The translations under genes were made by a program, and so were the position numbers. Shown here in pieces: positions 26,040 to 63,522 of a DNA stretch of 64,000 nt; positions within the stretch are counted from its first letter, which is position 1, and every line of letters starts with the position of its first letter. The notes below the pieces were generated by a model. It did no database searches and had not been told where the DNA came from. It saw nothing but the letters and a program-made list of their open reading frames with translations. Source of the DNA: Amphiscolops sp. MND2022 (Eukaryota); the NCBI GenBank assembly GCA_964187785.1, contig OZ076409.1, positions 48,176,001-48,240,000 of the forward strand, written 5' to 3'.

Positions 26040-26040
26040 C

Positions 26041-30835: not shown

Positions 30836-30975
30836 ATTTTTGTGTTTAACATATCAATAATGTTATAATCTAATATTCTACGGTTAAAACAGATAATTGT
30901 TTTAATTAAAACAAACATCTGTTTTAACCGTAGAATAATAGATTACAACATTATTGATATGTAAAACACAAAAAT
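30836..30975. repeat. 140-bp near-perfect palindrome
   Basis: 70-bp arms with 5 mismatches and no spacer. Confidence 0.92.
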
Positions 30976-30976
30976 A

Positions 30977-31062
30977 GAAGATAGAAATAGATACTTGAAG
31001 AGAATCGAGTTAAAGTCTTAAGACTTTAACTCGATTCTCTTCAAGTATCTATTTCTATCTTC
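30977..31062. repeat. 86-bp perfect palindrome
   Basis: 43-bp arms that are exact reverse complements, centred on CTTAAG. Confidence 0.95.
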
Positions 31063-34619: not shown

Positions 34620-37500
34620 TTTTAGTGTGTCTTGGTGTGGTCGTATGTCTTGTCGGTCCATTTTGTTTCCGAACTAATCAATTTCTTCCTTGAAGAATTG
34701 GCATATCTTTGGGTGTAATCTGTATCCTGTATTTTCCAATTTTTTCATCATTTTGCATAGTTTCGCTTCATGTCGCTTCATGTCGCTTTGGTAATTATTT
34801 ATGTGTCGTCGAGCCATGATGGTTGTTTGCATTCCAGCGTTTTATCTTTCCGTTCGTCGGTTGTGGAACTTGGTTCGGAAGTCCGCCAGTCTGTAGAGTG
34901 CTTTACGAAAACGGTAATATCTTGTGAACTCTGGTTGTGTTACGATGAATATGCATAGGTTTCTCGTTTTTCATCCATTTTCATTCGACCGTAAGCATTG
35001 TCAAAGTCAGTTTTCGTAGCCAAGATTTTACTCTCTGTGCCATCGGAAACGTTCCACAATATTCCTGATTTTACTTCTTCCGTATTTGGCACCTGTGCTA
35101 TTCCGCCTAATTTTACTTCTTTTAGTTCTTTTGAGTCGAAAGCAACTTTTTTATTCGAATGGTTTATCGTTTTACTGTGATCCCTGCAAGGCTCACGAAA
35201 CAGTCTTGTCATCTGAGATGCGTTTTCCAAGTAACTCTTTTCATTAACCGTTCTACATCTTCTGCTACTTGGTCGTGAAGATGTGTTCAGATTAGACGCT
35301 CCTTTGGTTGTAATGTTTCTGCCCAATCTTTTAAGGTTACTTTTACTGACAGACTCTTTGTGTCTTTGTTGTTGTAAAACATCTTAGAATATGTTTTGAG
35401 TTGCATCTTTTTTCTCCGTAGTAACCAATTTTAAAATATAGATTTGTATAGCGTCGTTTTTTAGTCGGCGCTTCATGAAGTGAAACGCGACTATTATAGT
35501 GGCTTTTCTTTTTTTGTTTTCAATCCACACAAACTGACCAAAATACTTCCTAAAAGTTCTACAAAATATTATTGCACCAAATTGCACTATTTGGTCTAGC
35601 GAACTGAACCAAAAAAGTTTTTCCTGTTTTCCCGCGTACCATACTATACCCAGGGAGACCAAAGGGTCCCCCCTTCCAATTTTTTTCGGCACTGCGAAAC
35701 ATTTTTTTCCGGAAATTTTTTTTTCAAAGGGTCCTCCCTTCAGTTTTTTTGCTGCTTTGCGACAAAATGGATGTTGGAAAAGCCCAAAGGGTTCCCCATT
35801 TCAGTTTTTTTTGACACTGTGAGATTTTTTTCCGAAAACAAAAATTTTTCCCCTTTTCAATTTTTTGACGTTTTGCGACAAAACCCCTTCAACTGCGACA
35901 AAAATGTTGACAATTTCGGAAGTGTCCCCCTTTCAGCGCGCCAGGGGCTCGCGCTAGCGGGCCCCGGCGCGCCACTTGGTCCATTTTTTGAGTATGTAAT
36001 TTTTTCAAAAATTTTTTTTTCGTGAAACATTCGATTTTCGAGTACTGTAAAAGAGAATACTTGACATTTGGAAGGCTTTTTGCTATTTTTGAGCCTGGGA
36101 TATGGCGCCGACTTGGGCCGGTCCCGGCTTGTTGCATTTAAATTTAGCCCCAGCGTGCGTTTACTATACGCTTCTACATTCAGTTTCTGTCTATGTTATC
36201 AAAAACAGTAAATCAATTGTTTATTTGTGTGATTTTTGTCGACGTTTATTTTTGTCAACGAATATTTTATGTCCAGTAAATTCATTCCCCTGATTGTTCA
36301 AATCTCTTTTAGTGGTTTTCAGTGGTTCAAATTCAGTTATTTTGTTGGACAAACAATTTGGAAAAAAGGTAGCTTGTGATTCGAGGTCGATGAAGAAATT
36401 GATTGTTTCAATCTGACCAAAACGTTGCGTTATAAAATTTCTTTGGTTTGTCACTATTCGTCATCGGAGATTCAATATAATTTCAGTTGCTTCTTCGAAT
36501 GACGATGTTTCTTTTTCGATGTATCGTACTCTTTTCAACGACCTGCAAAGTTTTTTGCATAGGCCCTTCTTTTCGAAGATTGAACATTCTGCCAATTTTG
36601 CGGGACAATTCTGCTGTCTTGTCTAATTTGATGCCCCACATTCTGCTCAGCAATTGTCTCTATATCCGAAATTTCGTATATGGTCTATTTTTTGAAGTGG
36701 TCGTATGCCTTGATGGTGCATTTTCTTTCCGAACTACTCGATTTCTTTCCTGAAGAACTGGCATTTGTTTTGAAATATTCTGCATTCCAATTTTTTCATT
36801 GTTTCGACTACATTCGCTTCATTTTCCTCTACATCGCTTTTGGTTATTACTTATGGTCGTCGAGCTATGATGGTTGTTCGAATTCCAGCGTTGTGTCTTT
36901 CAGTTCTTCGTTCTTGGAATTGGTTCGGATATCCGCCAGTCTGTGAAATGCTCTCCGAAAATGGTATTATCCCGTGAACTCTCCGAGTGTAACGGTGAAT
37001 ATGCATACGTTTCTCATTTTTTCATGCATTTTTATTTGACCGTATGAATTGTCGAACTCATGTTTCGTTGCTAAGATTTCACCTTCTGTTCCATCGAAAA
37101 CGTTTGACAATTTTCCTGAAAAAAATTCCTATAAATTTGGCACTCGTTCCTTTCTGCTTAATATTACTTCTTTCAGACTTTTTGAGTCGGGCGCAATTTT
37201 TTGAATCGTTAATCTTTTTATCGTGAGCACTGCAAGGCTCACGAAACAATCAATTGAAATCTGAGATGAAATTTTGAAATGTACATGTTCTAATAACTGT
37301 TCTAGTTCTTCTGCTATGCAGATGTATCAAGATTGGACGGTCTTTCTGTTGTTTTGTTTCTGTCCATCATTTAATGTTACTTTTACTGACAAATCCTTTG
37401 TTTCTTTGTTGTTATAAGACAGGTTTTTGAATTTTTTCTGATACGGATATTTTTTTCCGTAGTAGCCAATTTTATGATATAGAATACTATAGATTTGTAT
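34620..37500. repeat. Diverged ~1-1.4-kb tandem repeat units, continuing at 55120-56170
   Basis: Shared blocks such as TCCGTAGTA(A/G)CCAA..TATAGAT.TGTAT at ~35415, ~37456 and ~56013, and GTAAATCAATTGTTT at ~36208, ~55183 and ~56134. Confidence 0.75.
35457..36133 (+). mobile_element. HINE-like non-autonomous Helentron
   Basis: 5' TTTTTTAGTCGGCGC with partial inverted repeat; 3' GCGCCGACT followed by the hairpin GCCGGTCCCGGC and TTGTT. Confidence 0.75.
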
Positions 37501-38160
37501 TGTGACGTCATGATGCATGACTTCAAGAATCCTAATATTTGTTAAAGTATATTTAAACTCCCTGACCTAACAGCATGACAGATGCCATTTTATTTAAATG
37601 TTAATACTTCAATTATAGAGATGCTAATATTTCGAATGATTTCATTATAGAAGTAATCCGGTCAATCTCATCTTGTAATGATTTTAGTTCTAAATAACCT
37701 GAATACTGATTGATGTAATAACTGAAACTATATACTCAAAGTAACTTGAATGTTTTAATCTGACAGTGCTCTCATTTAGGAAGAAAAAGAATTCTGAGCT
37801 CTCAGTCTAACTTAGTCAAACTCAGTTCAGTAGAAATGATAGCTATCTAGACGGTACTCCTGATAAGACTTAAAAGAACTTCTTATGTATTCAGTAAAGG
37901 AAATTAAGATAAACATCCAACAAGTCTTTAACAGCTCAATTGGTGCGACCACGAAACTTCTCTTTTCTCTTCCTCTAGTACCTCAAATTCATTCTTCTTG
38001 TAGAAGCTTTCTAATTTTTTTCATTCGATACCTCTTTGTTCGCCATACAGTTTCACCTCCTCTCTCTATCGTATATCAATATTAACTTTCCGTTCCAACC
38101 AATTTTCTCTGAAAATTGATTCGTGTTGGTATGGTTCTGACTACGTTCCATACGTAATTC
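37501..38160 (+). repeat. 5' LTR of the env-bearing element
   Basis: TGTGACGTCATG...CATACGTAA(TT). Colinear with 54467-55119. The exact 3' boundary is uncertain by a few nt. Confidence 0.85.
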
Positions 38161-38302
38161 CTGTCAGTTAAATCTTCTTCGTTCCAACCACTTTTCAAGT
38201 GATACGTGTTGGTCATACTTATTTCCGTTCCAACCACCTCACCCGTGATTCGCGTTGGTTACTTCTCTTTCGTTCCACCGCAGACGTGCGATACGTGTTG
38301 GT
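38091..38302 (+). other. Array of four bulged stem-loop motifs CGTTCCAAC-[variable hairpin]-ATWCGY-GTTGGT
   Basis: Copies at 38091-38130, 38180-38213, 38226-38259 and 38271-38302 (the fourth has CCAC for CCAAC). Inner stems differ in sequence but always pair. Confidence 0.8.
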
Positions 38303-38702
38303 TTCCACAACGTGCTATCCAGCGATTCCTGCTAGTAAAAAACTCTTGGTTCTAGCCGCTTGGACCAACTTTAAAATAGTTGGCACAAAAACATAACACA
38401 GTTTCTCTTCTTTTATACTTCTGTAAACTGATTTTTCACTATAGTACATTCTTCTTCTTTTCTAAAACACTCCTATCTATAATACAAATTCTGATTTATA
38501 ATACAAATTCTATCTATAATACAAACTCTATCTTTGCTAACGTTAATACTAACCTTTAGTACTATTCATATATAACACAAACTCTCCCTTTAATATCATT
38601 TCAATACAAGTTCTAATACAAAATATGTCTTTATTTAATACACTTTTCTTACAACAAGTACAGAACAAAACTTACCTTTAATACAATTAACGTACAAAAT
38701 TA

Positions 38703-39095
38703 ATGCCTTCTATTGACACTTTAGTACGATTTCTAATTCTACTTTGGTTCTCTCTTGGTATACTTGCTGGTATTGCCCTTTTCTTTGACAGATTTTTGGT
38801 TTCTTTTATACCTAAATTCTGATATCTAACATACACTCCAAAATTTCTACAATCCTTATACAACACTCATCTTCATATGATACATACTATAATACTCCCC
38901 CTTTTTGGACTCTTTGGAATATGTTATACATTTTGTACCTTAATTTCACTCACATCTAACAAAGTATTACTTATTTTTCTTACTTTACTCGCTATTTTAA
39001 TTTAAATTACATTTATAGAACTAATTCACTTTGATACAAAATACTTTATTACACAATACCTGTTTTCACTATGGCACAATTTCTTTTCTAACTGA
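38703..39095 (+). pseudogene. Hydrophobic multi-TM ORF upstream of gag, with two in-frame stops
   Basis: MPSIDTLVRFLILLWFSLGILAGIALFFDRF...ILPLFGLFGICYTFCTLISL...VLLIFLTLLAILI; 131 codons in one frame. Confidence 0.45.
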
Positions 39096-42000
39096 TATTT
39101 AATATAATACAAAATATAATGCTTCCGCCTCCATTCCTATTATCCCACAACATAGATCTGCACGTTCAGTCACTCAAGATGTAATACCTTTCTTAAGCAA
39201 CCTAATTTTTCAGTACACCAATCCACTTTCATTTGAAACTGAAGCACATTCAATACATACAATACCATTACTTCGAGAACACTTAGTTTCCTATCTTTAT
39301 TACATCAGGTATAAAACTTTAGAAATTACTCCATCTCAGCAACCTTTTCAAATTATTTTTAACCCAATACAAGATATTAAACCAGGAACATATTTCAGAA
39401 CAATTCACCCTCGAAGTTTGACACTATCGATACAAGATATTTTCATCAGTTATATAGATAAACTTATAAAACACAATGAAAACTTGGATAAACCACTATA
39501 TCGACCTTCTCATCTTGAAAGTTTAAAAGACAAAGCTGATTATTTCGATGTACCTGATATTGATACAAAAATTCAAACACACAGTAATCCCCATTATTGG
39601 CTTCAACAAGATCTTCTACAAGTCACAAACTTCCAATACAAAATTTACACTTCCGAAATATTACACTAACTGACGATACAATACCCCAAATCAAAGTCTT
39701 CTCTCACTTTCTCCTAAAGTATTTTAGATTTAATTATCAACTATTATGGGAACAAAAAGATCAAACCGCATATGTTAACTTTCCTCATGTACTCACAGAA
39801 TGTGAACTCGTACCATTTATCACACAAATACTTTCAAACACTCCTTTTACAAAGACTTCACTACATTTCCTACATCATATTTTGAAAATATCATCTTGAA
39901 CTCTGATTTTATAATAGAACAATCAGAAATTTCTGATAGTAGACCTTATATAACTACTGTTAATATTTCACCATTCAATAAACACATAGTACAAGAAACC
40001 TTTGATAATGATGACAACGTCATTCACCATCAACCAACAACACCACAACCACCATCTCATTTACCACGAGTTACTACTGAATCTATTCAAGATACTCTTG
40101 CAAATCCACACACTTCTTCCACTATTACAGATTCTAATGCTCTTCAAAGACCTACCCACGATATTACAGAAAATACCAAAAATCCCTTTCATCAAGAAGA
40201 TCCCTCTACACTATCTACAATCAATGCTGTTGATACACAACCCCTCCAAACACACCACAGACAAAACTACGATCCTCCGCCTCCTCCATCTAAAACTTCT
40301 ACTCATAGTACTCCTACACATTCACCTCAACAAGGTTCATCTTATACATTTCAAAATAGAGAACACACCCTAACGCAATCACAGTCTCAACTAAATACCC
40401 CTCCACGACAATCTACACAAACAATACAATATATTCCTGTTCAACCTTCAATAACACAAAATCCTAATACCGTTTTTACAATCAATACCCTACATACCAA
40501 TCCTGTAACTAATACAACAACGTCTGGTGCACTATCTAGACCTCCTTTATCACTAATTCAAAACAACCCGCTCTCGTAAAACCTTACTAGTACTAATTTT
40601 CACTCACAACCATCTTCAAACATTACTCAATATAATACTAATATTCAACCCTCTTTTACTCAATTTAACAATCATATCCCTCCTAAAACAATACAAACAA
40701 ACCCACATGTTAACCCGACCTCTATTCAACCTGAAGCGAATACTCTAAACATACCTCCAAATTCCTTTAATTCTCACACTACTCACACTATACCTTCCTC
40801 TACTACACTTTTAACTACATTAAATACCCCAACCTACATTAACTCTTCTGCATCTATTGTCAAACCTATCAAACCTTTTGATGGTTTGGACCACAACTAT
40901 ACACCAGAAGAATATTTACAACATATTGAGGCCCGTGCAACATTTTCTCTAGGATTAAAACCTACTACTGCTCATGAACATAAATTTTTGCACGCTCGCC
41001 GAATGGCTTTTAAACAATGTTCATTAATTGGAACTGCTCTTAGTTGGTAGATTCTTTTGAATGATACTCATAAACAAGAAGAACGCCTATTACGCACAAG
41101 TTGAAGCTCTTAGCTTGGTTAAAAAGACAATGAAATTGTTCGCCATTTTGCACTGAAAGTTCAACAGCTGGTTGAAAAAGGCTGGTGTAATGAGAATGCA
41201 TCGACTATAAATCTCAAATGTAATGAAATCTTCACAAAAGCACTTCCAAAAACTCTTAAAGACTTTGCAAACAAACGACGAGTTAAACATACGTCTACTG
41301 TTTTAGAACCTTCAATTCCTTTTCACACTCTAGTCGACCTTGTTGATGCTGAAGACATCGCAAATGACAAAATACGTACACATTATCTTACTCTGGATGT
41401 CAACAATATTACAAAACAGCTACAAATTCAAACATGAGATTCACAACAATCTGATCAAGTACTGTTTACACAACCTCGAGACCCTAATGCCAAAACTAAA
41501 CCGGCTAACAAGTAATACTGTTTCTACTGTCACAGAACAAACCATTCTATCTCTGCTTGTTTCAAAAAACAACGAGATGATAAAGACAGACGTGATAATT
41601 ATGCAAGATCAAAATCTCCTCAGAAATCTTTTGTACAAAATTTTCGTTCATCCTCCATTGACAAAACATCAAGATATGACACAAGATCAAACGAATATCC
41701 AAATAGATATCGCAGTCGAAGTACATCTCGTAAAAACTATCAGAGAAATAACAATCCCCATTATAGACAAAGATCTACATCTAGAACTCGTTACAATTAT
41801 GATCGAAACACTACTCCTCCACATTACACTCGATCACGTTATGATAATTATCAGTGAGACTCTCGATCACATCGTTCACCATACAGGTCTTCTTATAGAT
41901 CACCATACACACGTGATTCACGTCCTAGATACAAATCTCGATCTTACTCCAGAGATGATAACTTCCAAAAATGCACTTCTTCATATAGACCTCCTTCAAG

Positions 42001-42110
42001 ACCTAAAGATTCCAGATAATCTAGATCTCATTCACACTCTAATACACGAAATAAAGTCAATAATATTCAACCACAATCTCCTATAGATCCAATTACCTTT
42101 GGAATACACA
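39071..42110 (+). pseudogene. gag: long N-terminal and Pro/Thr-rich region, capsid, Zn knuckle, Arg/Ser-rich tail; degenerate
   Basis: IKPFDGLDHNYTPEEYLQHIEAR (~40865); FALKVQQLVEKGW (~41147); CFYCHRTNHSISAC knuckle (~41520); RS-rich stretch at 41700-42050. Confidence 0.8.
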
Positions 42111-45100
42111 TGTATCACCCAACAGAAATGGCAAATGCATTAACTCCCACAATTTGGTTTTACTCCTTACATACACATGTTTCACCAAACCAAACCCAAC
42201 GTGACTATCCATCTAGACTTGAAATTTCTTTTCTCTTGGATAGTCGCGCTTCGATCTCTGTATTAAACTACCCTACTTTGTTACAATTGCAAAACTTCTT
42301 AATATTAAACAAAACAATCCACAAAAATCGTCTAAAACACTAACAGTTGCAAATCAACCAGAAGTTCCTATTTTACACTACGTCACTCTCACCTTAAATA
42401 CAACCATAGAAGATGACTCTCGTCAATTTACAGAACCTTTTGCAGTAGCAGATATAAAATACAAAATTCTTGGTACACCCTGCTTTGAAGAAAATATACA
42501 GAACATAAATCATCAAAATTTTACATTACAATTCAAACATCACTCTAGAGTACACCCAAACTATACAAAATTTACTTCACTTCTATCCAAAGATTACCCA
42601 TATTTCTAATATATCTATCGAATTAACCCAAAAACACAAGTTCGTCTAAAACCTAACTCCTCTAAAGTATCACACTTCCCTATAAACAATTATTACAACC
42701 TTCATTTCTCAACGACTCCACAGAATCAATTTTTCCCTACAAAACCACATACTTATTTTCCTTCAAAATTTCGTAAAACCTTCCGTTTCATTGAAGTTTT
42801 CACGGATGACAAACCAGACAATTGTGCTACAATTATCCAAAACTCTACGAATCTTGTTGCAGCACTTCCTACAGGACACATTGGATATATAGAAGTTTCA
42901 ATGACTAATGAAAAACCTAAATATTACCAAGTCAATGATATAAATACACTCATACACAATGTCACTCATACATACCACCCTAATATTACGGAACCAATTC
43001 CACAAACAAATTACTCTGTACCGCCCAATCATGATACCTTCTCTACTACTCAATCTCTCTATAATGTCCAACCCACTTCTCACACTTCAAAACCTCGAGT
43101 TTTTTCTTCATTACCGTATTCTCCCGAAATTCTCAAATTTATAAACAAATTCAACTTCCAATTTTCTGATCTAACAAATACCGAATACGTTACACTATGC
43201 AACCTATTACTCAAATAGAAAACATGTTATTCTACCCATTAAAATGATGAACCAATCCATTACCGTGATAAACTCAACAATCTTCCTAAAGAACTAGAAA
43301 AACATAACATTATCAAACAAATAGGTTCTTCTCAAGACAAACCAGTCTAAGGCAGAACTTATTTAAATCCTCTTATTATTATACCTAAAGGAGATTCCAT
43401 TAAATGTGTGTTAGATGCACAACACCTTAATTCTAATACAGAACAATCTGACGAATCCTGGCCTATTGAATTTCTTGCTCCACAATTGGCACGAGCGAAT
43501 AAAAATACAAATGTGCAATAGACCTCATGTATGCTTATGCACAAACACCTCTTGATGAAGAAACTATTAAACTTACAAGTTTCTCCTCCGGAGACAATTT
43601 TATCGCATTTATAAGAGGCTTTTATGGTCTCAAAGGACTTCCGAATTTCTTTACAAAACAAATGTCAACCTTTTTCAAACTCTTATTGAACAAGGTTTTG
43701 CTCTTGTTTGCATAGATGATATTTTACTCTTATCAAATTCTAAAGAACATATGTTTCAACTTATCGAACAGTTACATATTATTAGTACAAAAAATAATCT
43801 CAAACTCGCCCGAGACATCCTTTTTCATGCCTCTCAAAGTCAAATTTTTGGGACATGAAATAGGTTACAATACAATCAAACCCATTCATTCAAAAATTGC
43901 AGCCATACATAAAATTTCTTCTCCCACTGGAAAAGTTGCCCTAAAGAGTTTCATAGGTGCACTTAACTTTTATACAAAATTTATAGACAAACTTCATATT
44001 AACCTCAAACCATTTTACGATCTATTACATGAAAACACTCCTTGGAAATGGACAGATGAACATGAACGTTTATTCCAACCATTAAAGACATCTCTTACTT
44101 CTGACACAGAACTTACAATCCCCAAAACAAAACACCCATTCTTTATTAAAGTAGACGCTTCACTTATTGGATTAGGCGCTGTCCTATTTTAATTAAATTA
44201 ACTAAACAAAATGAAAGTTATATCTTACAATTCACGTATATTAAACCCACAAGAACAAAAACTCGCTACTCTTGAACGTGAACTCCTTGGTATAGTCCAT
44301 GCCCTTCAAATCTACGAATTCATCATTATAGATTCCCCCCTTCCGATCCTTATATTCACTGACCACAAACCTCTTTTACATTGTTTTACAAAAAAAGGAA
44401 ACCTTAGTCCACGATTCTATTGAGCTCAAATGCAACTTACCAAATTCTCAAAACATAAAATTATACTTACTCCTGGAAAAAAATTTTCTGTTGCTGACTC
44501 ACTCAGTCGCTCTTTTACGAAAGAAGAACTCCAAATAAATCAATTAAAACACAAACTCCTTCCACCTCAAATTGACTTTACAATATTACAAAACAACACC
44601 CTTAAACCCGTACATTACTTGATCAAACACGAAGAAGTTTTACCACATCAGAAACACGACTCTCATCCAATCCTTGCCGATTATGGTACAGATCAATTGT
44701 CAATACGAATTATTGACAAAGGTAACGATAATATAGTTAAACCGTTAAACTCTTTTTATTCCAAAGCTGTCACTCCCTTTCAATTCAAATTCAAAACACC
44801 TACAAAAAAACATAATAAATCTTTTCATCAACAATCTCTCCTATTGAACGATACTGATGTTACAAGTGATGACGAAGAACATATATACACTAGAATTCCA
44901 AAAAATAATTTTCCTTTCTCTACTGACGAAACGTTACATGATCAAGAAGAAACTTTCTCTACAATCGAAAAATCAACACCCAATACAATACTAAAACCAT
45001 TATCAGAATCAAGTTCTGATATCGATGTACAAACCAATTCAAATCCTATAACACATTCTCCACAAATTAAACCTTTCTATGATCCTCCCTTCTTCGGATA

Positions 45101-46980
45101 CAAAACTCACTTTCAAGGCTTCTTTCTTCCTGATGATTACTCTTTCGACCTCAAAACATTCCAAACACAACAATCCCAAAATCCTATTCTCAGAACTGTC
45201 CATTCTTGGATATCTCGAAATGAGAAACCAGAGTTTCTTACACCTCTAATCACTGGCAACCCTTTTTTACACGCGTATTGCAAACGATTTTCACAACTTT
45301 TTATCGATGATACTACAAACCTCATAAGCCTATATACAACAAATCCGCTTCCTCCTGAAACACATTCTATTTCAATTCCAAAATAAATATATAAAACTAT
45401 TCGAATTTGTCTCCCTTTTAGAATGTTTCAAACTGTATACAGCAAACTTCACGAACACTCTCACACAGGTATCAAAATCACATATAACACTTTTCACAAT
45501 ATTATTACATTCCCCATCTTGAAAAATGGTTATCTATTTTTATACATGACTGTATTGAATGTCAACGAAATAAACACTTCGTTATGAAAATCCAAACTGC
45601 TCCTACACCAGCATTTGCAGAACATGCTCCTTCTTTTAATTACAGAATTTCTATGGACACCAAAGGACCTATCAATCCTCCTTCAGCACACAAATCATAC
45701 ATTCATGTCATGGTCGACGCTTTTAGTCACTTTATTGTTACTGTTCCAATTAAATCAAACAATGCCAAAACCGCAGTTAAAACTCTATTACACCATTGGA
45801 TTACCAAATATGGTCCACCTATATACCTTGTTACAGACCGTGGATCTGAATACATAAATAACGATATGGCACATCTTTGTACTCTTATGGGAATTAGACA
45901 TTCCTCTAGAACAGCTTATTCTCCTTGGACAAACGGCATTGTAGAAGTACAAAACAGAAATCTTGGCACTCACTTCCGTATGTTTTTTCATAACACTCCT
46001 CAAGATTGGGCATTCCAAGTACATGTGTATGCATATGCACACAATTCACAATTAGAACTCCATGTTTCACCGTATGAAATTGTTTTTCACACAAGACCCA
46101 GAATCCCACTTACCTTTGATTTAAACCTTAATCGTAATGCCTCCAAAACTTGTGTTTCACATTATTGTTCTCAACTTCCAGAACATTCACACTACGACAA
46201 AACGGATTTAAACCCATTCTTTTATAAAAATCTCTAAACCTATCCCACAATGGTTTCTCGCTGTCGAAACTGCAATGTTACAAATATACTCCACTGTATA
46301 TTACTACACCCAAAAAAAACTAAATTCTTACGCTTACATTACTAAAACTTATCATGACGGAAAACCACTTCCTATTGGCACTTTTGTACTCAAACGTCCT
46401 TTTGCACATGTCCATTTTTCAGACAAACTTAAACCCCTTCGGATTGGTCCATACAAAATCTTTGATAGATTATCCGATGTTACATATGAACTTCTTGCAC
46501 AAAATGGTTCTACATTACACGTTCATAGAAATCATTTAATACCTTACTATCCTAAAGAACCACTCTTATATCCTCATCTACGTCATTTTATGCGTTTCTC
46601 TGACTCAAATAACTATGATAATAATACTCCAAATCCCAATAATTATGCAAACAGTGACTCATCACCTTTTAATTCCGATGAATCCCTTTCTGACAATCCT
46701 TCGTCATCAGATGACCAAAACCCTTCAAAGAAAGACCTCTTTCATAACTCATCAAATACTAATATTGACGGAGAGTCCTCCGTCAAATATTACCTCACCT
46801 TTCAAACAAATCCTCAAAGTCCCTGATAATGATCAATTTTCCGACAGAACCCGTCTCCCATCTCAAAACCAATCAACACCTCTCTATACTACAGATAATA
46901 GAAATACCAAAACTCATTATAACTTAAGACAACAACCCAAAATGGACTATCGTCTTTTCATACCACCATCCAAACTTTGA
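42110..46980 (+). pseudogene. pol: aspartic protease, RT, RNase H, integrase; multiple stops and frameshifts
   Basis: FLLDSRASISVL (protease, from DSGA); CVLDAQHLN, IDLMYAYAQ, FYGLKGLPNFF, VCIDDIL (RT); VDASLIGLGAVL, ERELLGIV, FTDHKPL (RNase H); ISMDTKGP, VTDRGSEY, NGIVEVQNR and GPY (integrase). Confidence 0.92.
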
Positions 46981-47039
46981 GTTTTTCATTTCAACTCCAA
47001 AATTTATATTCACTAGTTAACCAAACTAACAGAAAAACA

Positions 47040-48320
47040 AATCTAAACAAGCTGAACTATCACACTGGGTTTTTCACCTTAGACATCTTCCTCTGCTCCT
47101 AGTGTACCTTCTTCATCTGAATCTTCGGTTTCACAAGTTACCCAATCAAGCAATGTAACTCCTGTAACCCCTTCAAAACGACCACGATCTCTTATAATTT
47201 AACCACTTCTCCTACACAATCCTCTCAAACAACCTCTACTCATATTAGTAGACCACCTATTGCTGAGATACCACTTACCCCTCGTTCTCGATCTCAACCA
47301 TCAACTCGTACACCGGTAATTCATATACCACATCCTCATACTGTATCACACATTGTAATCTACAAACAGCCAACTGCTAAAAAAACTGCTCGCCTTCCAC
47401 CTCATTACCAACATAAATTAGATCTAGTACAAATCCCTGACATAGAATACACACCTCTTCCTTCATTACACCTACCATCTGAATCGTCTAAAACTACTCA
47501 ACTTACCTTCCTTGAAAACCTCTCAGACACCCTTCAACTTCTCTTTCTAATTTGTTAGATTCTGCATCTGAGTATCAACCACAAACAGATACTTGTAGCT
47601 CCGATATTGTACCTCAACATAGATATAATCTTAGACCTTTACCGAACAGACGCCTCAGTGCTACTGACTCGTCAACACTTAATATTTCAGCACTATCCAG
47701 TAATTCTGCAATACGTCTTCTCAGACAACACGCTCAACCCTTATCTTCTGAAAGCCCACACTCTTCAGAACTTGTCCCACAATCTTATTTTACAACTGGA
47801 GTTGGCACTGCTTCGTTAATTTCCTCTGATGTTCAAACTGTATACCTCTCAGGAAATTTCTTTTCTGAAGTTCTAATACCCACACCTGTGGCTCCTCACG
47901 TAAGAATCCCTGAATATTTTACATCTGTTCACTCAAGACCACCTACTCCCAATTTTGTAGATTATCCTATCCGTGTAGACGGAACGACTATCTACGATCC
48001 TCAAAACGATCCTCGTTTCCCTTTTTTACAGAACATTTTATTGCAAATATTAACTCACTTTCTAATAAAAGAAAAGAACTTGAACTCAAACGTCTTCAAA
48101 ATCCCAACTTTGAATTAAAACTTGAAGTCAAAGTCAAATTCCAAGGTCTTAATCCTCATCCTATATTTCACGTTGCAAAGATTGAACATAAAACAACCCC
48201 TGCTCCGTTTGAAGTCATTTTAACTGATTTTAATCGTGACCCAGAATTACATGACTTAGCTTATGGCAAAATCGTTTTCTACAACCCTTATTTTGGTCTC
48301 AAATATACTACTTCTTTTTA
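47040..48320 (+). pseudogene. Ser/Pro/Thr-rich ORF of unknown function preceding the glycoprotein
   Basis: ORF 47552-48118 plus adjacent frames (KRKELELKRLQNPNFELKLEVKVKFQG...YGKIVFYNPYFGLKY). May be an N-terminal extension of env. Confidence 0.45.
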
Positions 48321-50849
48321 ACAAATATACTTCTATTACATATATACTACTTTTCTATATCCCAATATATTTTACTTCTTCTATTCCTACTACTCCCACT
48401 GATGATAACCAATACCTTCCATCTGATGATCCAAACATTACCAATCTTATTTTCTGTCATTATGACTGTGCAAAACAACATAACCTTCGCCAACTTAATC
48501 TCATTAATGTAAAACAATGTACTGAAGCTCCTTCTAACATACAACACGCAAATGTTCAAGCCTGAGTTTATGTAAGAGCAAAAGCCAAACATGTTCGCGC
48601 TTTCAAACGTGAAGCTTATGCTAAAAAGAACGAAAAGTTTGCTTTCAAGGCAATGTCAAATACCGAATACCGACGTGTTGATCGAACTGTTTGGAATCAT
48701 AACACTATGCCACTACCTATCACTCTTGAATGTAAAAACCTTATTAGACATCCTATTGGAACTGATAATAAAATATTGAACAATCTCAACTATAACAATA
48801 CTTTTACACTAGTAGAAGACCACTATTTTCAAGGACAATTAGAACGATTTCAGACTCCTTTTACTGTATATAATTTTACCAAATGTAAACAGGAACCTTT
48901 CCTTATATGCCTGCTGACAAAAATTGGATATATGACCCACTTCGCAATCCTCATCATAACTGTCCTGCCCATCATCAATTTGAAGTCAACCTAGTAAGTT
49001 GGCGACTTGCAATATATGAAATAGAATTAACTTATGATGATACTCAAAATGTTGTGATAATTGATGGTCACACTTTACCATTGAAACAGACTCCTTTGTA
49101 CACTCCTCTATTCCCAAAAAACCTGCCACCAACGCTGGTATTAAGGTACTTCTTATCCTTATGTCCATGCTCCACATGCACAAAACCCACATAACCCAAG
49201 TCTTTCACACTTTGAAGTATTTCCTAATGCTCAATCCTTTTGTGGTAAACCTGAACCTCATTATTCTACTCAACACTCTGATCATTTTGTTACTTACACT
49301 GAAGGATTTGATATGCATACAGGATAAGCAAATCCTAGCTCCATTATAAACAATTGTATTTCCGGTAAAATAGTATTGAACAATTCTAACAACAAAAACA
49401 TATTCCCAGCAATAAATGTTTCCAACAATTTTGCTACAATAGACTATGATGCACATATAATTTCAAAGATAGATTACACTATTAACCATGTTTTTCGTTC
49501 AATGACTGTCCAAGAACTAAATACTTTTCATACAGTATGTTAATTAGAACGGAACCAACTTCTTACAATACTTGCAATGTCTGTACAGAACACTCAACTT
49601 GCTGGCTTCCTTCTGACAGGCAATCGCAGTAATTACCTCTATGTTGAAGGTTCTACTGCTTGGCTTTATGATTGTCCACATTTTCTTTCTCCATTATATG
49701 TTACTGACCGCTGTTTTGACAGAATTCTTATTCACTTTGAAGACACTCTTATGTACGTTGACCCTATTACACGCCAAACATTTCAGTATGCTACTCCTAT
49801 CACATGCGAAAATAATCCAAAGAACATTATCGAACCTGAGCCAGACTCAGATGATCAAGACAGACTTTTATATACTTGGTCTTGAACCTATTAAAAGAAA
49901 ACCACCACTTATGTTTATTCCTTCGCAAAGTAAAACTACAATACGCCCTAATACTTTTACAGCTCAAGATGCTGGTATATATTCTAATGCTAAACTAGAT
50001 CAATTTTGGAATAGAATTCTATTTTCAAAACATTCAGAAACTACACTACAACTTTTGGGAAAAGCCGTTAGTTGTTCTCTTTTCTTTCCTCTAACACACC
50101 TTATTATGATGCCAATACCCCACATGACAATCCATACAATACACTTCGTATTGGACTCCATGATAGACTAATTAATCTTACACCACTTTTTACTCCTACA
50201 TGGTTTTCAGATGCTTTTATCGCTTTATTTGGATACACAATGTAAAATATATTTTTCTACATATCGTTTCATACAAACAATGTTAACACTCATAGTTAAA
50301 CTTTAAACAACTATTTCAATCAAATACAATCTTAAACAAAACATCACAGTTCTTAGCTCTCTTGCTCATGGTTTTTTGAATATTTTTACAGCTGACATGT
50401 TACATGACCTAAAAAATGCTCGTTCCAAAAGATCTCTTAAAAGTTCAAATCACCTGTCCAACATTACTGAAAGCTCATTAGATGAATCCTCTTTAAATCA
50501 TCGTGATACAACTGGTATTTCTTCAAATCCAACTGGCATTATTTCACCACCACCATTTTATACAAAACGTCCGACTAGGATTTCCAAAATGACACGTTTT
50601 AAATTCCTTCCCAGAGGGAAACAGTATTCCAATCAAAAACGCAATACTGGTCAATCAACATTTACTACATCATCATCATTACCACATTACTCTTCTGTCA
50701 CCACAAATCCTAATGATTATCCTTTAAATACATCACCTGTCGATTGCGAGATGGACACTCCTGTCCGCATACATTCCAAAACAAATTACTCCTTTCCTCC
50801 GCCATCTTTTCAAACTGACCATTCTGACTTTTTCACTTTTCCTGAATAG
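48263..50849 (+). pseudogene. Env-like viral fusion glycoprotein (chuvirus/class III-like), degenerate
   Basis: Hydrophobic leader; FCHYDC...LNLINVKQC; VC*LERNQLLTILAM...LAGFLLTGNRSNYLYVEGSTAWLYDC...PLYVTDRCFDRILIHF...YVDPITRQTFQYATPITC; membrane anchor at ~50200-50400 and a Ser/Pro-rich tail. Confidence 0.75.
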
Positions 50850-51073
50850 CTGCTCGTTGAACAACTTCTTTTCCCTCTCTTTCTTGCTCTACATCAGAAC
50901 TTCTCTTCCAAATTGAGCAACCGCCTCCTCTCCAACTTGAATCCGTCATCGAAATAACACTCAACCGCCCAACAACTATCCGTGTTCTTCCTCCTCCTCC
51001 TCAAACAGCTAATAAAGCTACTCGTTAGTGTTTTCTCAACTAAAAAATTTTTATAAAACAATCTTTCTCAAAT

Positions 51074-52449
51074 ATGACACAAGCACAATTAGATTTTCAT
51101 AGACTGACTCCACATATAACACAAGAACATTTTGATCTTCGAAATCAACTCGAAATGCACACTATGGATCTTATAACAAAACCTCTCTCTAATGATTCTC
51201 CTGTCCTCTTTCTTGGTACTAAAGATCTGCCTACTATATCTTCAAATGACCAAATGAAACTTCAACCTATATCTTCAAAATACAAAACACCTTCAGACCA
51301 CAATAATTCTCCTGAAACTCCACCACCAACAAAAAAGAAATATGAAATAATGAAAGATCCTGCATTTCTTTCATCACCGGTATATCCTCCAATAATACCT
51401 ACAAAACCTCAAAACTCAACTAATCGCAACGAAAATCTTACACCCATACTGTCTACAAATCAATTCTCTTTCAAATCACAATCAACTTCTCTATACATGC
51501 ATCCAACTGACTACAACTTCAAACTCTAAGATAAAAATCAAAACTTCTTCACATCAATTGCTTCTAAAATTATGGCACCTTATCAGTACTGGTTTGATAA
51601 TGGTGTAAAAATACTCTCTCTACAGTTCAACTTTCTCCACCCATCTGTCTATGATCTAGAAACAGATGAAAATGATCCATCTTTCCTATCGAACGCTCAA
51701 AAAGCCAATCTTCACTTCACTTATACTCGCTTTCTTCAACACACCAAACCTCAAAATTACATTTTTGCAAACTACAAATATACATCACCTTTCACGATGA
51801 CAAACCTATATACCATTGACCACTCTAAAATAACAGGATAACTCCGTAATTACGATCCTATCAAACAATACTTTTGTCTACTTCCTCATTATGATACATC
51901 TCGTCCTTTTATCGTACCCCAAGAAGCTCTAATTCATTTTGATGACTTTCTGTTGCCTTGCAACGTTCCAACTCAGATTGTCAAACCGTTGGCAGTAATA
52001 AAACACTTTGTTTCATCACCCTAGATGATAAAGACATTTCTTATTATACAGCTCTCTCAAAGCAATCACAATCATATAAAGAATTTTTGTTCATCGCTGC
52101 GAAAGTCATTTCCTTTATGGTTTAAACAGAACAAAAACATACCTATTCAGATCAATAATCGCCTACAAAATCTCCTATCAAACATTCACAAACCACTAGT
52201 GAAAAACTTTCTACCAAGTTGAACAACCGTACTCTTAAGGACCTAACTCAAATGTTGGACCCATATAAACGAAACCCATCGGATTCTCCAATCACCACTC
52301 TTAACCATCTAATACACTGCTATGACAGAACTTCTAAACTTCTCCAGACTCTAAACCTAGATTCTCAACGTATAACACAATCATCTCGAGCAATTCAATC
52401 TGCTCTTGACTCTATGAATACCCTGTTTAATACTTTCAATTTTCAATAA
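51074..52449 (+). pseudogene. Accessory ORF of unknown function, interrupted
   Basis: ORFs 51074-51529 and 51572-51841 are in the same frame with single stops. Protein-like text continues (LRNYDPIKQYFCLLPHYDTSRPFIVPQE) towards 52449. Confidence 0.6.
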
Positions 52450-52833
52450 ATCATCTCTCAGGTAATACAAATTTCTTTAATTTTTGTACGATCCTATACT
52501 GGACACTTTCTCTATTGAACATTTTCAACCCAAACTACAGGCAACATTCCTATTTTACTTCCCAAAAATTTTGGGACATTATCTATGGTTCCTAATATAT
52601 CTTCTAGCACTCTCTTTTTCGACTCTTTTTCAGAATTACTTTTCATCTATAGTACAAAAACAACATACATAATATAGCACCAGAGTATATAACAAAAAAT
52701 TCCTTGCATTTTGTCTTCAAATCTAAGACTCCATCTGTTTTAGAAACTTCTATTCTTCTTCCTCCTTCTGGACTTCTTTCAGCTTCCGCCAACTCCAAAA
52801 ACTTCTACCAGGATTTCAGCTCTCGTTCTTCTA

Positions 52834-53289
52834 ATGGCTCCGCAAAACTCTGAAATCAAAAAGCTTGGTAACTCCACAACCTCTAAAGTACCTAGTTTAA
52901 AAGCCGCCATCTTCCACACTATGGCCTATAAAATGTCACTGGAAAACAACAACGGCAATGTAACTCTTCCTATCAGACGTTCCTTCCTAAAAGTTCTTTA
53001 CAACGTATGTCAAATCAAGAAAAAGCACATAAATTTCGAACAATACTATCGCATTCATGTTGAAGGCCCAAAAATCGCTGTTTGCGAAACTACTTCGGAA
53101 ACAGTTTTCGTCCTAAATTCTGCAATTACAAGTAAGGACAACTACTTTCAAACTGCCCTAGATGACGCCATAGATGCATTTAATGCTAGCTTTCTCAATT
53201 TTGGATATACTCAACAACTACAACGTTATGACCCAGAAACCCATCAAGTACACCATCCTTCAAAACATCCTTTTTGGCCAACAGAATAA
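52834..53289 (+). CDS. Accessory ORF of unknown function (151 aa)
   Basis: ATG-initiated, globular-looking ORF inside the element on the same strand as gag-pol-env. Confidence 0.55.
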   Translation: MAPQNSEIKKLGNSTTSKVPSLKAAIFHTMAYKMSLENNNGNVTLPIRRSFLKVLYNVCQIKKKHINFEQYYRIHVEGPKIAVCETTSETVFVLNSAITSKDNYFQTALDDAIDAFNASFLNFGYTQQLQRYDPETHQVHHPSKHPFWPTE

Positions 53290-54466
53290 AAAATAACATG
53301 AACCAACCTCACTCATTTCGCTTCTCTGCAACTTCTTCTTACTTTGATGCTGCTGAAATTCTTTAATGGACTCATTGATTTCTTCAACTTCAACATGCAT
53401 CTTTCACTACATGCTTCTCGAACTCTTCTTCACATCGACACTTATTCACTTGCGTCGGTGCTTCTCTTCTTCGCTGTCCATCCAGACACCGTCACTCCTC
53501 ACTTCTTTGACATCGTCAACCACCACCCATCATCGTCACTTCAACCATCACCCATCATCGTCACTTCAACTGTCATCCATTATCACTCTTCAACATCGTC
53601 CAAGACCCAAACACCAGTTTCTTTCGACTTTCAAACTTCAAACATTCATTAGCCTCCAGTTCTTTCGACTTTCAAACTTCAAACTTTCATTAACTCAATA
53701 TTTAACCTTCAATAAGTCGTGTAATCTTTAGTTTAGTTCTTACTATAAATACCCCCCGTATAATCTTTATTTTACTATAATTCTTTGTAATCGTATAATC
53801 AATATTCTAATCTGATGCTATTATAAACTCTCATTTAATCAAATTGTAATCATTTTACTTATTCATTTTGTGCTTAGTACACAAATTTCACTTATATAAC
53901 CCTTAATTGTACTCAATATTTTCTTGTCTTTCTTCTTTTTTTCCAGTACAAGACACCTTCTTCTATAAGACATTTTCGACTTTTGAATTTCAACTGAAAT
54001 TTGAAGTTTGAAGTACTTTCCGAAAAGACTATTCCTCACTTTCTTGAGAATGAAATGAACCTTTGCAATTTTTGACTTCTTCACACTTTGTTCACTACCC
54101 GCCAATGTTTGTTCACAACTCATTGACAACTTTCAGAAATGTTCTTCAACTCGAAAAGTTTCCATTTGAATGCTCATATGAAGAACTCATATATTTTTTA
54201 AAACAAAAGCCTACTACTACAAGTTGTCAAACAATAACTTGAACAACAACGTCAATCAAAACTTTTGACTGACTGAAAAACGTTGCACCAATGTGAACCA
54301 TCAAATCACTAAGAAGTTCAAACCGTCTTAGGTTGTTCTCACTCCTTAAGTATGGTACTCTAACATAACAAGAAACATTAAACACCTATAGTACAAAGCT
54401 CAAGTTTAAAACACACACCCCCTGAAGATACTGATATACTTTACGCTTTCTGAAAACCTGGTCGAT

Positions 54467-55119
54467 TGTGACGTCATGATGCATGACATCAAGAATCTTA
54501 ATACTTGTAAAAGTATAATTAAACTCCCTGACCTAATAGCATGACAGATGCCATTCTATTCAGAAGTTAATACTTCAATTTTTGAGATGCTAATATTTCG
54601 AATGATTTCATTATAGAAGTAATCCCATCAATCTCATCTTGTAATGATTTTAATTCTATATAATCTGAACACTGATTGATGTAATAACTGAAACTATATA
54701 CTCAGAGTAACTTGAATGTTGTAATCTGACAGTGCTCTCATTTAGAAAGAAAAAGAATTCTGAGATCTCAAGCTAACTTAGTCAAACTCAGTTCAGTAGA
54801 AAAGATAGCTATCTAGACGGTACTCCTGTTAAGACTTAAAAGAACTTCTTAAGTGTTCAGTAAAGGAAATTAGGATAAACATCCAACAAGTCTTTAACAG
54901 CTCAATTGGTGCGACCACGAAAATTCTCTTTTCCCTTCTTCTATCACCTCAAATTCATTCTGTACAAACTTTCTAAACTTTTTCATTCGATACCTCTTTG
55001 TTCGCCATAGTTTCACCTCCTCTCTCTATCGTATATCAATATTAACTTTCCGTTCCAACCAATTTTCTCTGAAAATTTATTCGTGTTGGTATGGTTCTGA
55101 CTACGTTCCATACGTAACT
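54467..55119 (+). repeat. 3' LTR of the env-bearing element
   Basis: Colinear with 37501-38160; ends CATACGTAACT. Confidence 0.85.
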
Positions 55120-56170
55120 TCCACCAAAAAGCCTGAGTTTAGTCCTTGTTTTTACGTTTATTTGTTGTATCTTATCAAAGCCGTAAATCAATTGTTTCTT
55201 TGTATGTTTCAACGAATTTTTTTTGTCTTGTAAATTCAACCGCCTGATTGCTCAAGTCTCTATCAGAGGTTGTGATTCGAGGCCGATAATGAGTTTGATT
55301 GACGCTATCTGACCGGAAACGTTGCGTTATATAATTCCTTTGGTTTGTTGCTATTGGTCGTCTGAGTTTAGTTATAATTTCAGTTGTCTACTTCAGATGA
55401 CGATATTGCTCTTTCGATGTATTGTTTTTTTTCAACATCCTGCAAAATTTTTTGTAATGTCCTTTCTTTAAAAAACTAGGCATTTTGCCAATTTTGCGTT
55501 GCAATTATGCTGTCGTGTTCAGTTCGGGGCCTCACATTCTCCGAAGCAATTGTCTCTATATCAGAATTTTTGATTCTTCAATCATTTTTGTTCTTTCAAG
55601 ACAGGATATTTCTGACAATTTTCTCTTGTTTGGTCAACATTAGACTCTCAATGTGTTATCTATGTCCATTTTGTTTGGTTCATTATCCGTAACGCTTTTT
55701 GTCATTTCTGTTGAGCTGATTCTCCCAGCTGAACTGTTCAACACAGATTATTTTGATTTGATTGATTCGTCTTTTTACTGTGATCACTGAAGGGCTTACG
55801 AAACAGTCTTTTGAAAATTGAGATGCTTGTTCCAAATATACGTGTTCTTTCTATTTCTACCACTACTTGGAGTGATGTATCAAGATTGGACAGTCTTTTT
55901 GTTGTATTATTATTACCCCTTTCTTAAGGTTACTTTGCTGGCAGATTCTTTATTCCTTTGTGGTAAAACAACAGATCTTAGAAACCTTTTTTGACTTGGA
56001 TAATTTTTTTCTCCGTAGTAACCAAGTTAACAATATAGATCTGTTGTATAGCGTCGATCTGTTTTTACGCTTTGTTCCAGCCTGCGTTTAGTCCCTCTAT
56101 TCAAGTTTAGCTTCTGCATTTGTTATCAAAAACTGTAAATCAATTGTTTCTTTGTATGTTTCAACGAATA

Positions 56171-58261: not shown

Positions 58262-59111
58262 TGTAACGGCTGCTTGATCCCTTCAATTGACCAAACTTTA
58301 CGCCGCCCTGAATTCGGTGCTCGGCACTGCGGATCGTTGCCGAACACTGCTTGCTTCTTAGATTAAAAGGACTGTATCTTGACTTAGTAGGATCCAATGA
58401 TCCCGAATTGCACTTCTTCCTTGTCTCTTAACACGTCCAACTCTCCACAAGTTGAGAGTAACTAACTTAATCGCCCTAAGTCTTTGGCGAAAAGTCGAAA
58501 AGAGGTGAAGAAATGAATTGAGAATTGAAATGGTCCTAAGACCCGACTTTAATACAGCTTTCCAATCAATTTGTGCCTATCTAACAATGGTATACATATC
58601 GTTTACAATTATTCGATAACTATGAGTTGAAATATGAAGTATAAATAAATGACATTTAAGTGAATTATTAAAGTTATTGGCTATGTAAACAAACCATAGT
58701 GTGGGTATAGCATGTTGGTTAGGTGGGCTCTAAGCATGTTTACACAATGTAAATATCATTAATTGCAACAGAGTTACATTCTAATGTGGTCATATAGGTA
58801 AATAACAAAGCTTACATTTTTGGTTCAATGACCTTGAACACCACACATGTGAGGGGTAAAGAGGGTTATAGTATATGAATGACCTTGAAACTTAGCCGGT
58901 GTGTTCGTGTTAGGTGCTTGCATATGTGTGCCAAGTTTCATGTCTCTAGGGTTAATAGTTGTCGAGAAAATCCATTTTGGGGGGGGGTTTCCATTTTTGT
59001 GATGGGAATTTCTTCAAAATTTCATCTAAGTTTTTTTTGAGTTTAAGTTTTGTTTCTCAACCAGCACGTTCCGAATCGAGTTTCTTTGCCTGCTGATGAC
59101 TGGCGCCGACA
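58262..59111 (-). repeat. 3' LTR (850 bp)
   Basis: Minus strand TGTCGGCGCC...GCCGTTACA. Nearly identical to 63523-64000 over the available length. Confidence 0.92.
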
Positions 59112-63506: not shown

Positions 63507-63520
63507 GGGTCGGCGGACCA
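63504..63520 (-). promoter_or_regulatory. Primer binding site
   Basis: Minus strand TGGTCCGCCGACCCGGA, identical to 14140-14156. Confidence 0.8.
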
Positions 63521-63522
63521 AA

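What the first reader, a model, noticed from the sequence alone, without database searches (positions are those of the whole stretch)
37501..55119. 17.6-kb complex retrovirus-like Gypsy element with a fusion glycoprotein and several orphan accessory genes
Seen: LTR, hairpin array, TM ORF, long gag, pol, Ser/Pro-rich ORF, glycoprotein, at least two more ORFs, LTR, all on one strand. Known: most Ty3/Gypsy elements are much shorter; errantivirus env is baculovirus-F-like, and chuvirus-type glycoproteins have been described mainly in BEL/Pao elements. Inference: this may be an undescribed lineage of infectious invertebrate retrovirus-like elements with a complex-retrovirus layout. This copy is inactivated by many stops and frameshifts.
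Basis: partly seen in the sequence, partly recalled or inferred. Interest (0 to 1): 0.88.

Follow-up and report, generated by a model that had tools for sequence, protein, structure and literature searches.

The report
Complex enveloped retrotransposon with accessory genes
This is a broken copy of a large, recently multiplying family of retrovirus-like elements in an invertebrate genome; besides an envelope gene they keep several extra genes, one of which appears to start at CUG instead of AUG, a layout more like a complex retrovirus than an ordinary transposon.

Summary
The element is real: 17.4 kb (37501-54904), LTRs 93% identical, with many stops and frameshifts. It is an old copy of a large family (1,780 exact LTR-primer-site junctions in the genome). 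Young sister copies (17.7-17.9 kb, LTRs 99.5-100% identical, 4-bp target duplications) show the layout: two small membrane ORFs, one 2,691-aa gag-pol, ORF2, a class III chuvirus/gB-type env, ORF4, ORF5. The extra ORFs are not secondary insertions; they are under purifying selection across families (dN/dS 0.06-0.45).

New: ORF2 has no AUG. It begins at a CTG in strong Kozak context in 27 of 28 copies from four families, and AUGs are depleted from there to env, which suggests CUG initiation with leaky scanning to env. The RT forms a long-stemmed clade with marine-metagenome elements that also read pol-ORF-env. Sister families carry a TRAF/MATH gene.

No RNA run was listed; infectivity, splicing and accessory functions are inferred. 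Verdict: new variant of a known kind.

The parts
37501..37938 (+). 5' LTR, 438 bp, TG...CA
37941..37951 (+). primer-binding site TGGTGCGACCA, shared by families A-E; matching tRNA not found
   Evidence: pattern search empty
38092..38301 (+). leader with four short imperfect repeats; AUG-poor in family A (1 observed, 6.0 expected); no excess folding
38703..38822 (+). small ORF0, 39 aa, one predicted membrane helix; open in this copy
   Evidence: (dN/dS 0.23-0.45)
38877..39098 (+). small ORF1, 78 aa and two predicted helices in young copies; 2 stops here
   Evidence: (0.26-0.45)
39119..46980 (+). gag-pol: orphan N-terminal domain, capsid, CCHC knuckle, protease, RT, one RNase H, bridge, integrase; broken here (25 frame-changing indels, 14 stops)
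47011..47018 (+). conserved YAG-T motif between pol and ORF2 (splice acceptor or initiator-like)
47065..48321 (+). ORF2, 414 aa from a conserved CTG in Kozak context; Ser/Pro/Thr-rich N-part, conserved C-terminal domain; broken here (5 frame-changing indels, 2 stops)
   Evidence: (0.07-0.22)
48263..50849 (+). env, class III fusion glycoprotein, 908 aa in young copies; broken here (12 frame-changing indels including a 139-nt deletion, 8 stops)
   Evidence: (ectodomain 0.07-0.11)
51023..51031 (+). acceptor-like CGTTAG/TG before ORF4, found in 23 of 25 copies of families A-C
51074..52449 (+). ORF4, 471 aa in young copies, orphan; broken here (7 frame-changing indels, 3 stops)
   Evidence: (0.10-0.14)
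52457..52465 (+). CAG/GTA just after the ORF4 stop (donor, or acceptor), 22 of 25 copies of A-C
52736..52747 (+). acceptor-like TGTTTTAG/AAAC before ORF5, 21 of 25 copies of A-C
52834..53302 (+). ORF5, about 160 aa, basic, orphan; 1 frame-changing indel and 1 stop here
   Evidence: (0.06 against family A)
54467..54904 (+). 3' LTR; no purine-rich tract directly upstream
54905..55117 (+). primer site and start of leader of a truncated tandem second unit; not part of the LTR

Best explanation
The window holds a dead copy of an autonomous, env-bearing LTR retroelement of the Ty3/gypsy type that works like a complex retrovirus. SHOWN: gene order; recent amplification; purifying selection on env and four accessory ORFs; class III fold of env; conserved CTG at the start of ORF2; AUG depletion. 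INFERRED, with my odds: the genomic RNA gives the small membrane proteins and Gag-Pol. A subgenomic RNA that starts in the pol-ORF2 spacer makes ORF2 from the CUG (0.85), and ribosomes that scan past it make Env from the first strong AUG about 1.2 kb on (0.65), which would couple the two in a fixed ratio. ORF4 and ORF5 are read from further RNAs processed at conserved AG sites (splicing 0.55; internal promoters or trans-splicing otherwise). Env lets particles pass between cells, most likely soma to germline (0.55). The accessory proteins most likely regulate element expression or blunt host defence (0.5, by analogy only; the TRAF/MATH gene of sister families points that way).
For: Layout in 8 of 8 family A copies (env open in 7 of 8, ORF5 in 7 of 8); ORF2, env, ORF4, ORF5 in 6 of 6 family B copies, small ORFs in 5 of 6; ORF2, env, ORF4 homologues in 3 of 3 family D copies. 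dN/dS family A vs B: RT-RNase H 0.04, env ectodomain 0.07, ORF2 C-part 0.07, ORF2 N-part 0.21, ORF4 0.14, small ORFs 0.45, with dS 0.7-2.2. CTG in 27 of 28 covered copies (29 examined), A at -3 in 28 of 28, G at +4 in 27 of 28, while CTG encodes 0 of 233 leucines in family A gag-pol. Conservation begins at about that codon. ATG between CTG and env: 3 vs about 11 expected in A, 3 vs about 10 in B, 1 vs 8.2 and 0 vs 6.0 in D; the remaining ones open 1-17 aa frames. Spacers are AUG-poor while LTR and 3' UTR are not. Env: PF24664 E 9e-23; 14 of 15 cysteines kept across 46 sequences; best fold matches chu-like virus G (E 2e-23) and herpesvirus gB (E 1e-10). Env and RT trees give the same groups.
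Against: No transcript, ribosome or particle data support any expression step. No strong splice donor is conserved in the leader. The A-C splice-like motifs after ORF4 are not kept in family D. AUG depletion is partial, and one older copy has 10 ATGs. The three metagenome relatives show weak depletion (4 vs 7.9, 6 vs 10.1, 5 vs 8.5), so the CUG mechanism may be limited to families A-D. No R-X-K/R-R furin site in 4 of 4 envs tested, and the C-terminal membrane helix of families A and D fell under my hydropathy threshold. The env model is mediocre (pLDDT 56; TM-scores 0.13-0.29 by query length). No function could be assigned to ORF2, ORF4 or ORF5. Copies are related, so the counts are not independent events.
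Confidence: 0.72

Rival explanations
1. ORF2 is the second exon of a spliced gene that takes its AUG from a small leader ORF or from gag; the CTG is a conserved leucine.
For: A YAG lies 43, 74 and 48 nt before the CTG in families A, B and C. Tor3a env is spliced from a donor near the start of gag (PMC4402516, passages).
Against: The AG-to-CTG distance and frame vary between families, and the nearest YAG in family D is over 200 nt upstream. In family A the ORF2 frame is closed by a stop 18 nt before the CTG. A leucine would not need the otherwise unused CTG codon or the -3A/+4G context, and this reading does not explain AUG depletion in the other frames.
Confidence: 0.1
2. Downstream genes come from internal promoters (as in Tor3b/4b) or from spliced-leader trans-splicing, not from cis-splicing; the CUG start may still hold.
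For: The motifs before ORF2 and ORF4 also fit an initiator-like YYAGT (consensus recalled). No conserved leader donor. Tor4b env RNA starts in the spacer after pol (PMC4402516).
Against: TGTTTTAG and CAG/GTA are typical splice signals and are kept in 21 and 22 of 25 copies; branch-point-like words precede the ORF4 motif (read by eye).
Confidence: 0.35
3. An ordinary member of an already named env-bearing Gypsy clade (for example one of the 'ancient errantivirus' groups or a Tor lineage) whose extra ORFs were simply not annotated.
For: Best solved RT match is Ty3; Pfam domains are Gypsy-type; gB-type env occurs across many Gypsy lineages (PMC13524379). My trees contain no named elements.
Against: RT-RNase H identity to everything outside the clade is at most 34%, with RGFYGL where the outgroup rows shown have PFG[LIV]. 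The published survey capped regions at 10 kb and the pol-env gap at 1 kb in its search; here the gap is about 1.27 kb and gag-pol plus env exceed 12 kb.
Confidence: 0.3
4. The element is now purely intracellular; env and the accessory genes serve egress, RNA handling or host manipulation, not infection.
For: No canonical furin site; no relative found among viral contigs.
Against: The env ectodomain is under strong constraint (0.07) and tracks RT across distant lineages; furin sites are not always kept in gB-type errantivirus env (PMC13524379); that viral collection is mostly prokaryotic viruses (own knowledge).
Confidence: 0.3

Closest known systems
gB-type env-carrying Ty3/gypsy 'ancient errantiviruses' (Chary and Hayashi, PMC13524379)
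   Same: LTR, gag-pol-env order, class III gB/chuvirus-like env, single RNase H, many near-identical copies
   Different: About 18 kb; an ORF between pol and env and two after it; two small membrane ORFs before gag; AUG-less ORF2.
Burro/GYPSM1 giant Gypsy elements of planarians (PMC6431247, passages)
   Same: Very large, thousands of copies, env homology, MATH/TRAF domain (here in sister families E and F)
   Different: Burro packs its domains and env into one 4,900-aa polyprotein with env between gag and pol; here they are separate ORFs after pol. The host's mitochondrial code is not the flatworm one.
Tor elements of Oikopleura (PMC4402516, passages)
   Same: Divergent Gypsy-like pol; env RNA from a site in the spacer after pol (Tor4b); 4-5 bp target duplications
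   Different: No accessory ORFs are described in the passages read; the host's mitochondrial code is not the tunicate one. Sequence relationship not tested.
Drosophila MDG1/412 elements with sORF1 and sORF2 (PMC11952523, passages)
   Same: Two small accessory ORFs, one a membrane protein linked to cell-to-cell transfer
   Different: Those elements lack env; here small membrane ORFs and env coexist; the ORFs do not start with the MG myristoylation motif.
Foamy-like fish endogenous retroviruses up to 17 kb (cited in PMC6431247) and complex retroviruses
   Same: Size, several accessory ORFs, probable subgenomic RNAs
   Different: RT is nearer Ty3 than foamy virus; no second RNase H found; class III rather than retroviral env.
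Anakin (BEL/Pao with chuvirus glycoprotein; PMC7642597, search listing only; described in PMC12440569 and PMC13524379)
   Same: Chuvirus-like glycoprotein
   Different: pol here carries Gypsy-type domains.
Bdelloid rotifer LTR elements with extra ORFs (PMC5408684, passages)
   Same: Captured ORFs after pol; insertion between protease and RT
   Different: One extra ORF3, env of class I F type; a dUTPase could not be shown here.

Membership tests
Ty3/gypsy (Metaviridae) | Domain order protease-RT-RNase H-integrase with Gypsy-type gag, RNase H and integrase C-terminus | tested here: met
   PF03732, PF00078, PF17917, PF17921, PF00665 over cut-off; SH3_Tf2-1 and Integrase_p58_C below cut-off in the intact copy; protease weak, E 0.03
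Ty3/gypsy (Metaviridae) | LTRs with TG...CA ends, tRNA primer site, 4-6 bp target duplication | tested here: met
   4-bp duplication in 8 of 8 family A copies; family D ends TG...TA; not readable for the window copy
Ty3/gypsy (Metaviridae) | RT nested among named Metaviridae clades | tested here: inconclusive
   Best PDB match Ty3 (E 2e-36), but the clade is split from all other sampled Gypsy-like RTs by a long branch and no named references were in the trees
gB-type errantivirus (sense of PMC13524379) | Intact gag, pol and env in multiple genomic copies | tested here: met
gB-type errantivirus (sense of PMC13524379) | env with class III gB-like fold and conserved cysteines | tested here: met
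   model pLDDT 56, monomer only
gB-type errantivirus (sense of PMC13524379) | RNase H followed by a 'mini' domain in the bridge | not tested
   the 310-aa bridge has no Pfam hit; not folded
Retroviridae / foamy-like / loki / Odin | Degenerate tether plus second RNase H; RT grouping with retroviruses | tested here: not met
   one RNase H with Gypsy-type profile directly after RT, none found in the bridge; foamy RT scores far below Ty3.
Troyka | CG...CG termini, 3-bp duplication, no env, longer zinc knuckle | tested here: not met
   TG...CA, 4 bp, env present, CX2CX4HX4C (definition from PMC12440569)
Burro | Single giant polyprotein with env between gag and pol | tested here: not met
   against PMC6431247
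BEL/Pao Anakin | BEL/Pao-type pol | tested here: not met
   no Pao families among the Pfam hits; Gypsy-type hits only
Infectious errantivirus | Cell-to-cell transmission of enveloped particles | not testable with these tools
   needs host tissue

The most novel reading that the evidence does not exclude
The clade (families A-F here plus marine-metagenome relatives) is an unnamed, family-level lineage of reverse-transcribing viruses of marine invertebrates that independently reached complex-retrovirus organisation: class III env inherited with pol, small membrane proteins, CUG-initiated bicistronic ORF2-env expression, processed subgenomic RNAs and captured immune-signalling genes (TRAF), and it still spreads as enveloped particles.
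Probability: 0.3. Interest if true: 0.9.

Novelty: new variant of a known kind. Interest (0 to 1): 0.74.

Why it matters
Accessory genes and recoded translation are usually treated as marks of complex vertebrate retroviruses. Here they are kept by selection in a Gypsy-type element with well over a thousand copies, young ones among them, so the expression model can be tested with ordinary RNA and ribosome data from the host. A conserved CUG start coupled to env by leaky scanning was not found for an LTR retrotransposon among the titles and abstract starts listed (11 of 12 papers listed).

Tried and rejected
This is no evidence either way. ORF4 fold: pLDDT 43, not searched. Atlas: no usable hit for the ORF4 core or the ORF2 C-part. 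ORF4 homologues: 283 hits, the 120 listed all unnamed ENA proteins without Pfam. An apparent shared beta-domain between ORF4 of A-D and the post-env ORF of E/F/L082 was rejected: a profile of A-D found none among 761 ORFs, HHalign probability 0.1%; E/F vs L082 only E 0.016 among 660 ORFs. ORF2, ORF5 and gag N-domain profiles also found nothing in E, F or the metagenome loci. A third ORF after env rejected. Hairpin array not beyond shuffles. dUTPase between protease and RT: no Pfam or PDB support. Primer tRNA not found. Env had no PDB match by sequence or profile. Viral contigs: 20 pattern matches, none confirmed. Names for relatives: none informative in 30 clusters looked up. Motif search in the eLife supplements is uninformative because the control motif also had no hit. 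Host phylum: a host exon search found nothing. No earlier findings for this genome.
Full report
OBSERVATION. The window lies at G000:C1:48176001-48240000 in a 1.07-Gb genome. The region has a strong one-strand GC skew from 38 to 55 kb and fragments of RNase H, integrase and a Monjiviricetes fusion glycoprotein. The LTRs are 438 bp (37501-37938, 54467-54904; K2P 0.069), and the 3' LTR is followed by 213 bp of primer site and leader, so the copy is 17.4 kb and ends in a tandem stump. Every ORF except the 39-aa one carries stops or frame-changing indels.

FAMILY. Ten copies of the window's own subfamily (C), picked by their env match, are 84-93% identical and collinear over ORF2-env-ORF4; 8 of 10 run to the 3' LTR and 4 of 10 to the 5' LTR. 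An integrase search gave 23,708 candidates; of 150 scored, 52 by my hand count lie in a 2,695-codon open frame. Eight of these (family A) are 17.7-17.9 kb, with LTRs 99.5-100% identical and 4-bp target duplications in 8 of 8. Their layout is: 39-aa and 78-aa membrane ORFs, gag-pol 2,691 aa, ORF2 (420 codons, no Met), env 908 aa, ORF4 471 aa, ORF5 about 160 aa. Family B (6 copies) has the same set. Family D (3 copies; pol about 58%, env 55%, ORF4 42%, ORF2 C-part 38%) has the same order with an unrelated ORF5. One 21-base LTR-primer-site word has 1,780 exact matches genome-wide and its control none.

SELECTION. Family A vs B dN/dS: RT-RNase H 0.04, integrase 0.05, env ectodomain 0.07, ORF2 C-part 0.07 and N-part 0.21, ORF4 0.14, gag N-domain 0.12, small ORFs 0.45; ORF5 is saturated against B and 0.06 against the window. 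Those alignments were protein-guided, so I checked with plain nucleotide alignments: mismatch at codon positions 2 and 3 is 8.7/37.8% in ORF2, 7.8/30.7% in env, 6.6/42.3% in ORF4, 9.0/50.0% in ORF5, but 25/29% in the 3' UTR and 30/21% in the ORF4-ORF5 spacer.

EXPRESSION SIGNALS. ORF2 does not overlap pol, so a frameshift is excluded in A-C. Conservation between families starts at about an in-frame CTG with A at -3 and G at +4, also present in family D. The CTG is kept in 27 of 28 copies that cover the site (29 examined), although family A gag-pol uses CTG for 0 of 233 leucines. Between it and the env AUG, ATGs number 3 against about 11 expected in A, 3 against about 10 in the three B copies scored, 1 vs 8.2 and 0 vs 6.0 in D; older C copies have 3-10. 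Those left open frames of 1-17 codons. In family A the leader and spacers hold 2 ATGs against 14.5 expected, while the LTR (12 vs 8.3) and 3' UTR (21 vs 16.8) are not depleted. CUG starts and leaky scanning are known from MLV glyco-Gag and several viruses (recalled). AG motifs are conserved before ORF4 (23 of 25 A-C copies) and ORF5 (21 of 25), and CAG/GTA follows the ORF4 stop (22 of 25). No conserved leader donor was found, so splicing, internal promoters and trans-splicing remain open. No RNA run was listed.

ENV. PF24664 is hit above cut-off; 14 of 15 cysteines are kept in a 46-sequence alignment. The model (pLDDT 56) matches chu-like and xinmovirus glycoproteins best among viral models and herpesvirus gB among solved structures, with low TM-scores. 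The env tree recovers the same groups as RT (A-D; E-F; metagenome contigs), with long-branch warnings.

PLACEMENT. Among 1.84 billion representatives, the nearest RT-RNase H sequences outside the families A-D type are unnamed proteins at 39-44% over long stretches. In a 126-sequence tree the families, five metagenome loci and several such proteins form one clade (19 tips, support 1.0, stem 0.56); IQ-TREE on 46 of the 126 rows gives SH-aLRT 100. Identity to any outside row is at most 34%, and the clade has RGFYGL where the outside rows shown have PFG[LIV]. The best solved match is Ty3. The trees hold no named elements, so 'unnamed clade' is not shown. Three metagenome contigs repeat the pol-ORF-env order. 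Families E and F of this genome add a TRAF/MATH gene. Accessory ORFs of A-D are not detectably homologous to those of E, F or the contigs: the layout is shared, the cargo turns over.

WHAT IS KNOWN. PMC13524379 (abstract; sections 5 and 6 part 1, 7, 8, 14; term searches; supplement search and first part of file 7) shows gB-type env to be widespread in Ty3/gypsy, says nothing on accessory genes in its main text, used 10-kb and 1-kb limits, and has no hit for six acoel-related names in its supplements; its figures and sequence repository could not be seen and may hold a member of this clade. PMC6431247 (passages) describes Burro with env and MATH_TRAF and 17-kb fish ERVs. PMC4402516 (part 2 of 6 and passages) gives an internal env promoter; PMC11952523 (passages) small membrane ORFs; PMC5408684 (passages) captured ORF3s; PMC12440569 (part 1 of 5 and passages) defines Troyka. 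Eight searches listed no paper on this layout, judged from titles and abstract starts; one search returned none. The library lacks most subscription journals and Repbase.

VERDICT. Each ingredient has a precedent; the combination, the selection evidence and the CUG-ORF2/env coupling were not found in those searches. It works like a complex errantivirus; membership in Ty3/gypsy is met by structure and open by phylogeny. New variant of a known kind, interest 0.74; a 30% chance that it is a family-level lineage of enveloped invertebrate retroelements, worth 0.9.

Noticed in passing
L122:4279-5178, L128:4133-4882 (families E and F): Sister families in the same RT clade end with a TRAF/MATH-domain ORF (Pfam E 9e-12 and 7e-22); the family F ORF has 34 full-length matches at 98-100% among 150 scored. 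They have separate gag and pol and several small orphan ORFs in a 3.0-4.7 kb pol-env gap.
   Followed up: partly
L081, L082, L083: Metagenome contigs (RT-RNase H about 41% identical in L082 and L083) read pol - 290-313 aa ORF - env (26-28%), and L082 has a further 391-aa ORF. Host unknown.
   Followed up: partly
L055:4226-4831 and 8585-8995; window 41334-42086: Alternative-frame ORFs overlapping the nucleocapsid region (202-230 aa in 8 of 8 A copies, 203 aa in 4 of 6 B copies, about 230 aa in D) and the integrase (137-138 aa in A and B). May be a by-product of codon bias.
   Followed up: no
L115, L117, L119 leaders: Family D has three small hydrophobic ORFs before gag (45-48, 37, 78 aa) and TG...TA termini; family E has 56- and 58-aa hydrophobic leader ORFs.
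   Followed up: partly
window 34637-37492 and 55130-56179: The element interrupts a degenerate repeat (72-81% between units) present on both sides.
   Followed up: partly
window 11255-27938, 13214-21128, 58262-63822: Other long direct-repeat pairs (96%, 99%, 99% over 300 nt), probably nested LTR elements; family A proteins found no match outside 37-55.5 kb at E 1e-4.
   Followed up: no
window 30836-30975 and 30977-31062: Two adjacent palindromes with no spacer (70-nt arms 93%, 43-nt arms 100%).
   Followed up: no
P0208: A 2,790-aa clade member whose RT catalytic motif reads YTDT, with a long extension ending in a globular-looking domain (macro-domain-like by recall, untested).
   Followed up: no
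L131: Host cox1 reads sensibly under mitochondrial table 5 (AGA/AGG as Ser, ATA as Met at conserved-looking sites): an invertebrate, not a tunicate, flatworm, echinoderm or diploblast. An acoel is my untested guess.
   Followed up: partly
P0339, P0340-P0342, P0336-P0338, P0344: Distant env relatives (27-33%). P0339 has only 57% matches in this genome, so the lineage occurs in at least one other long-contig assembly.
   Followed up: partly
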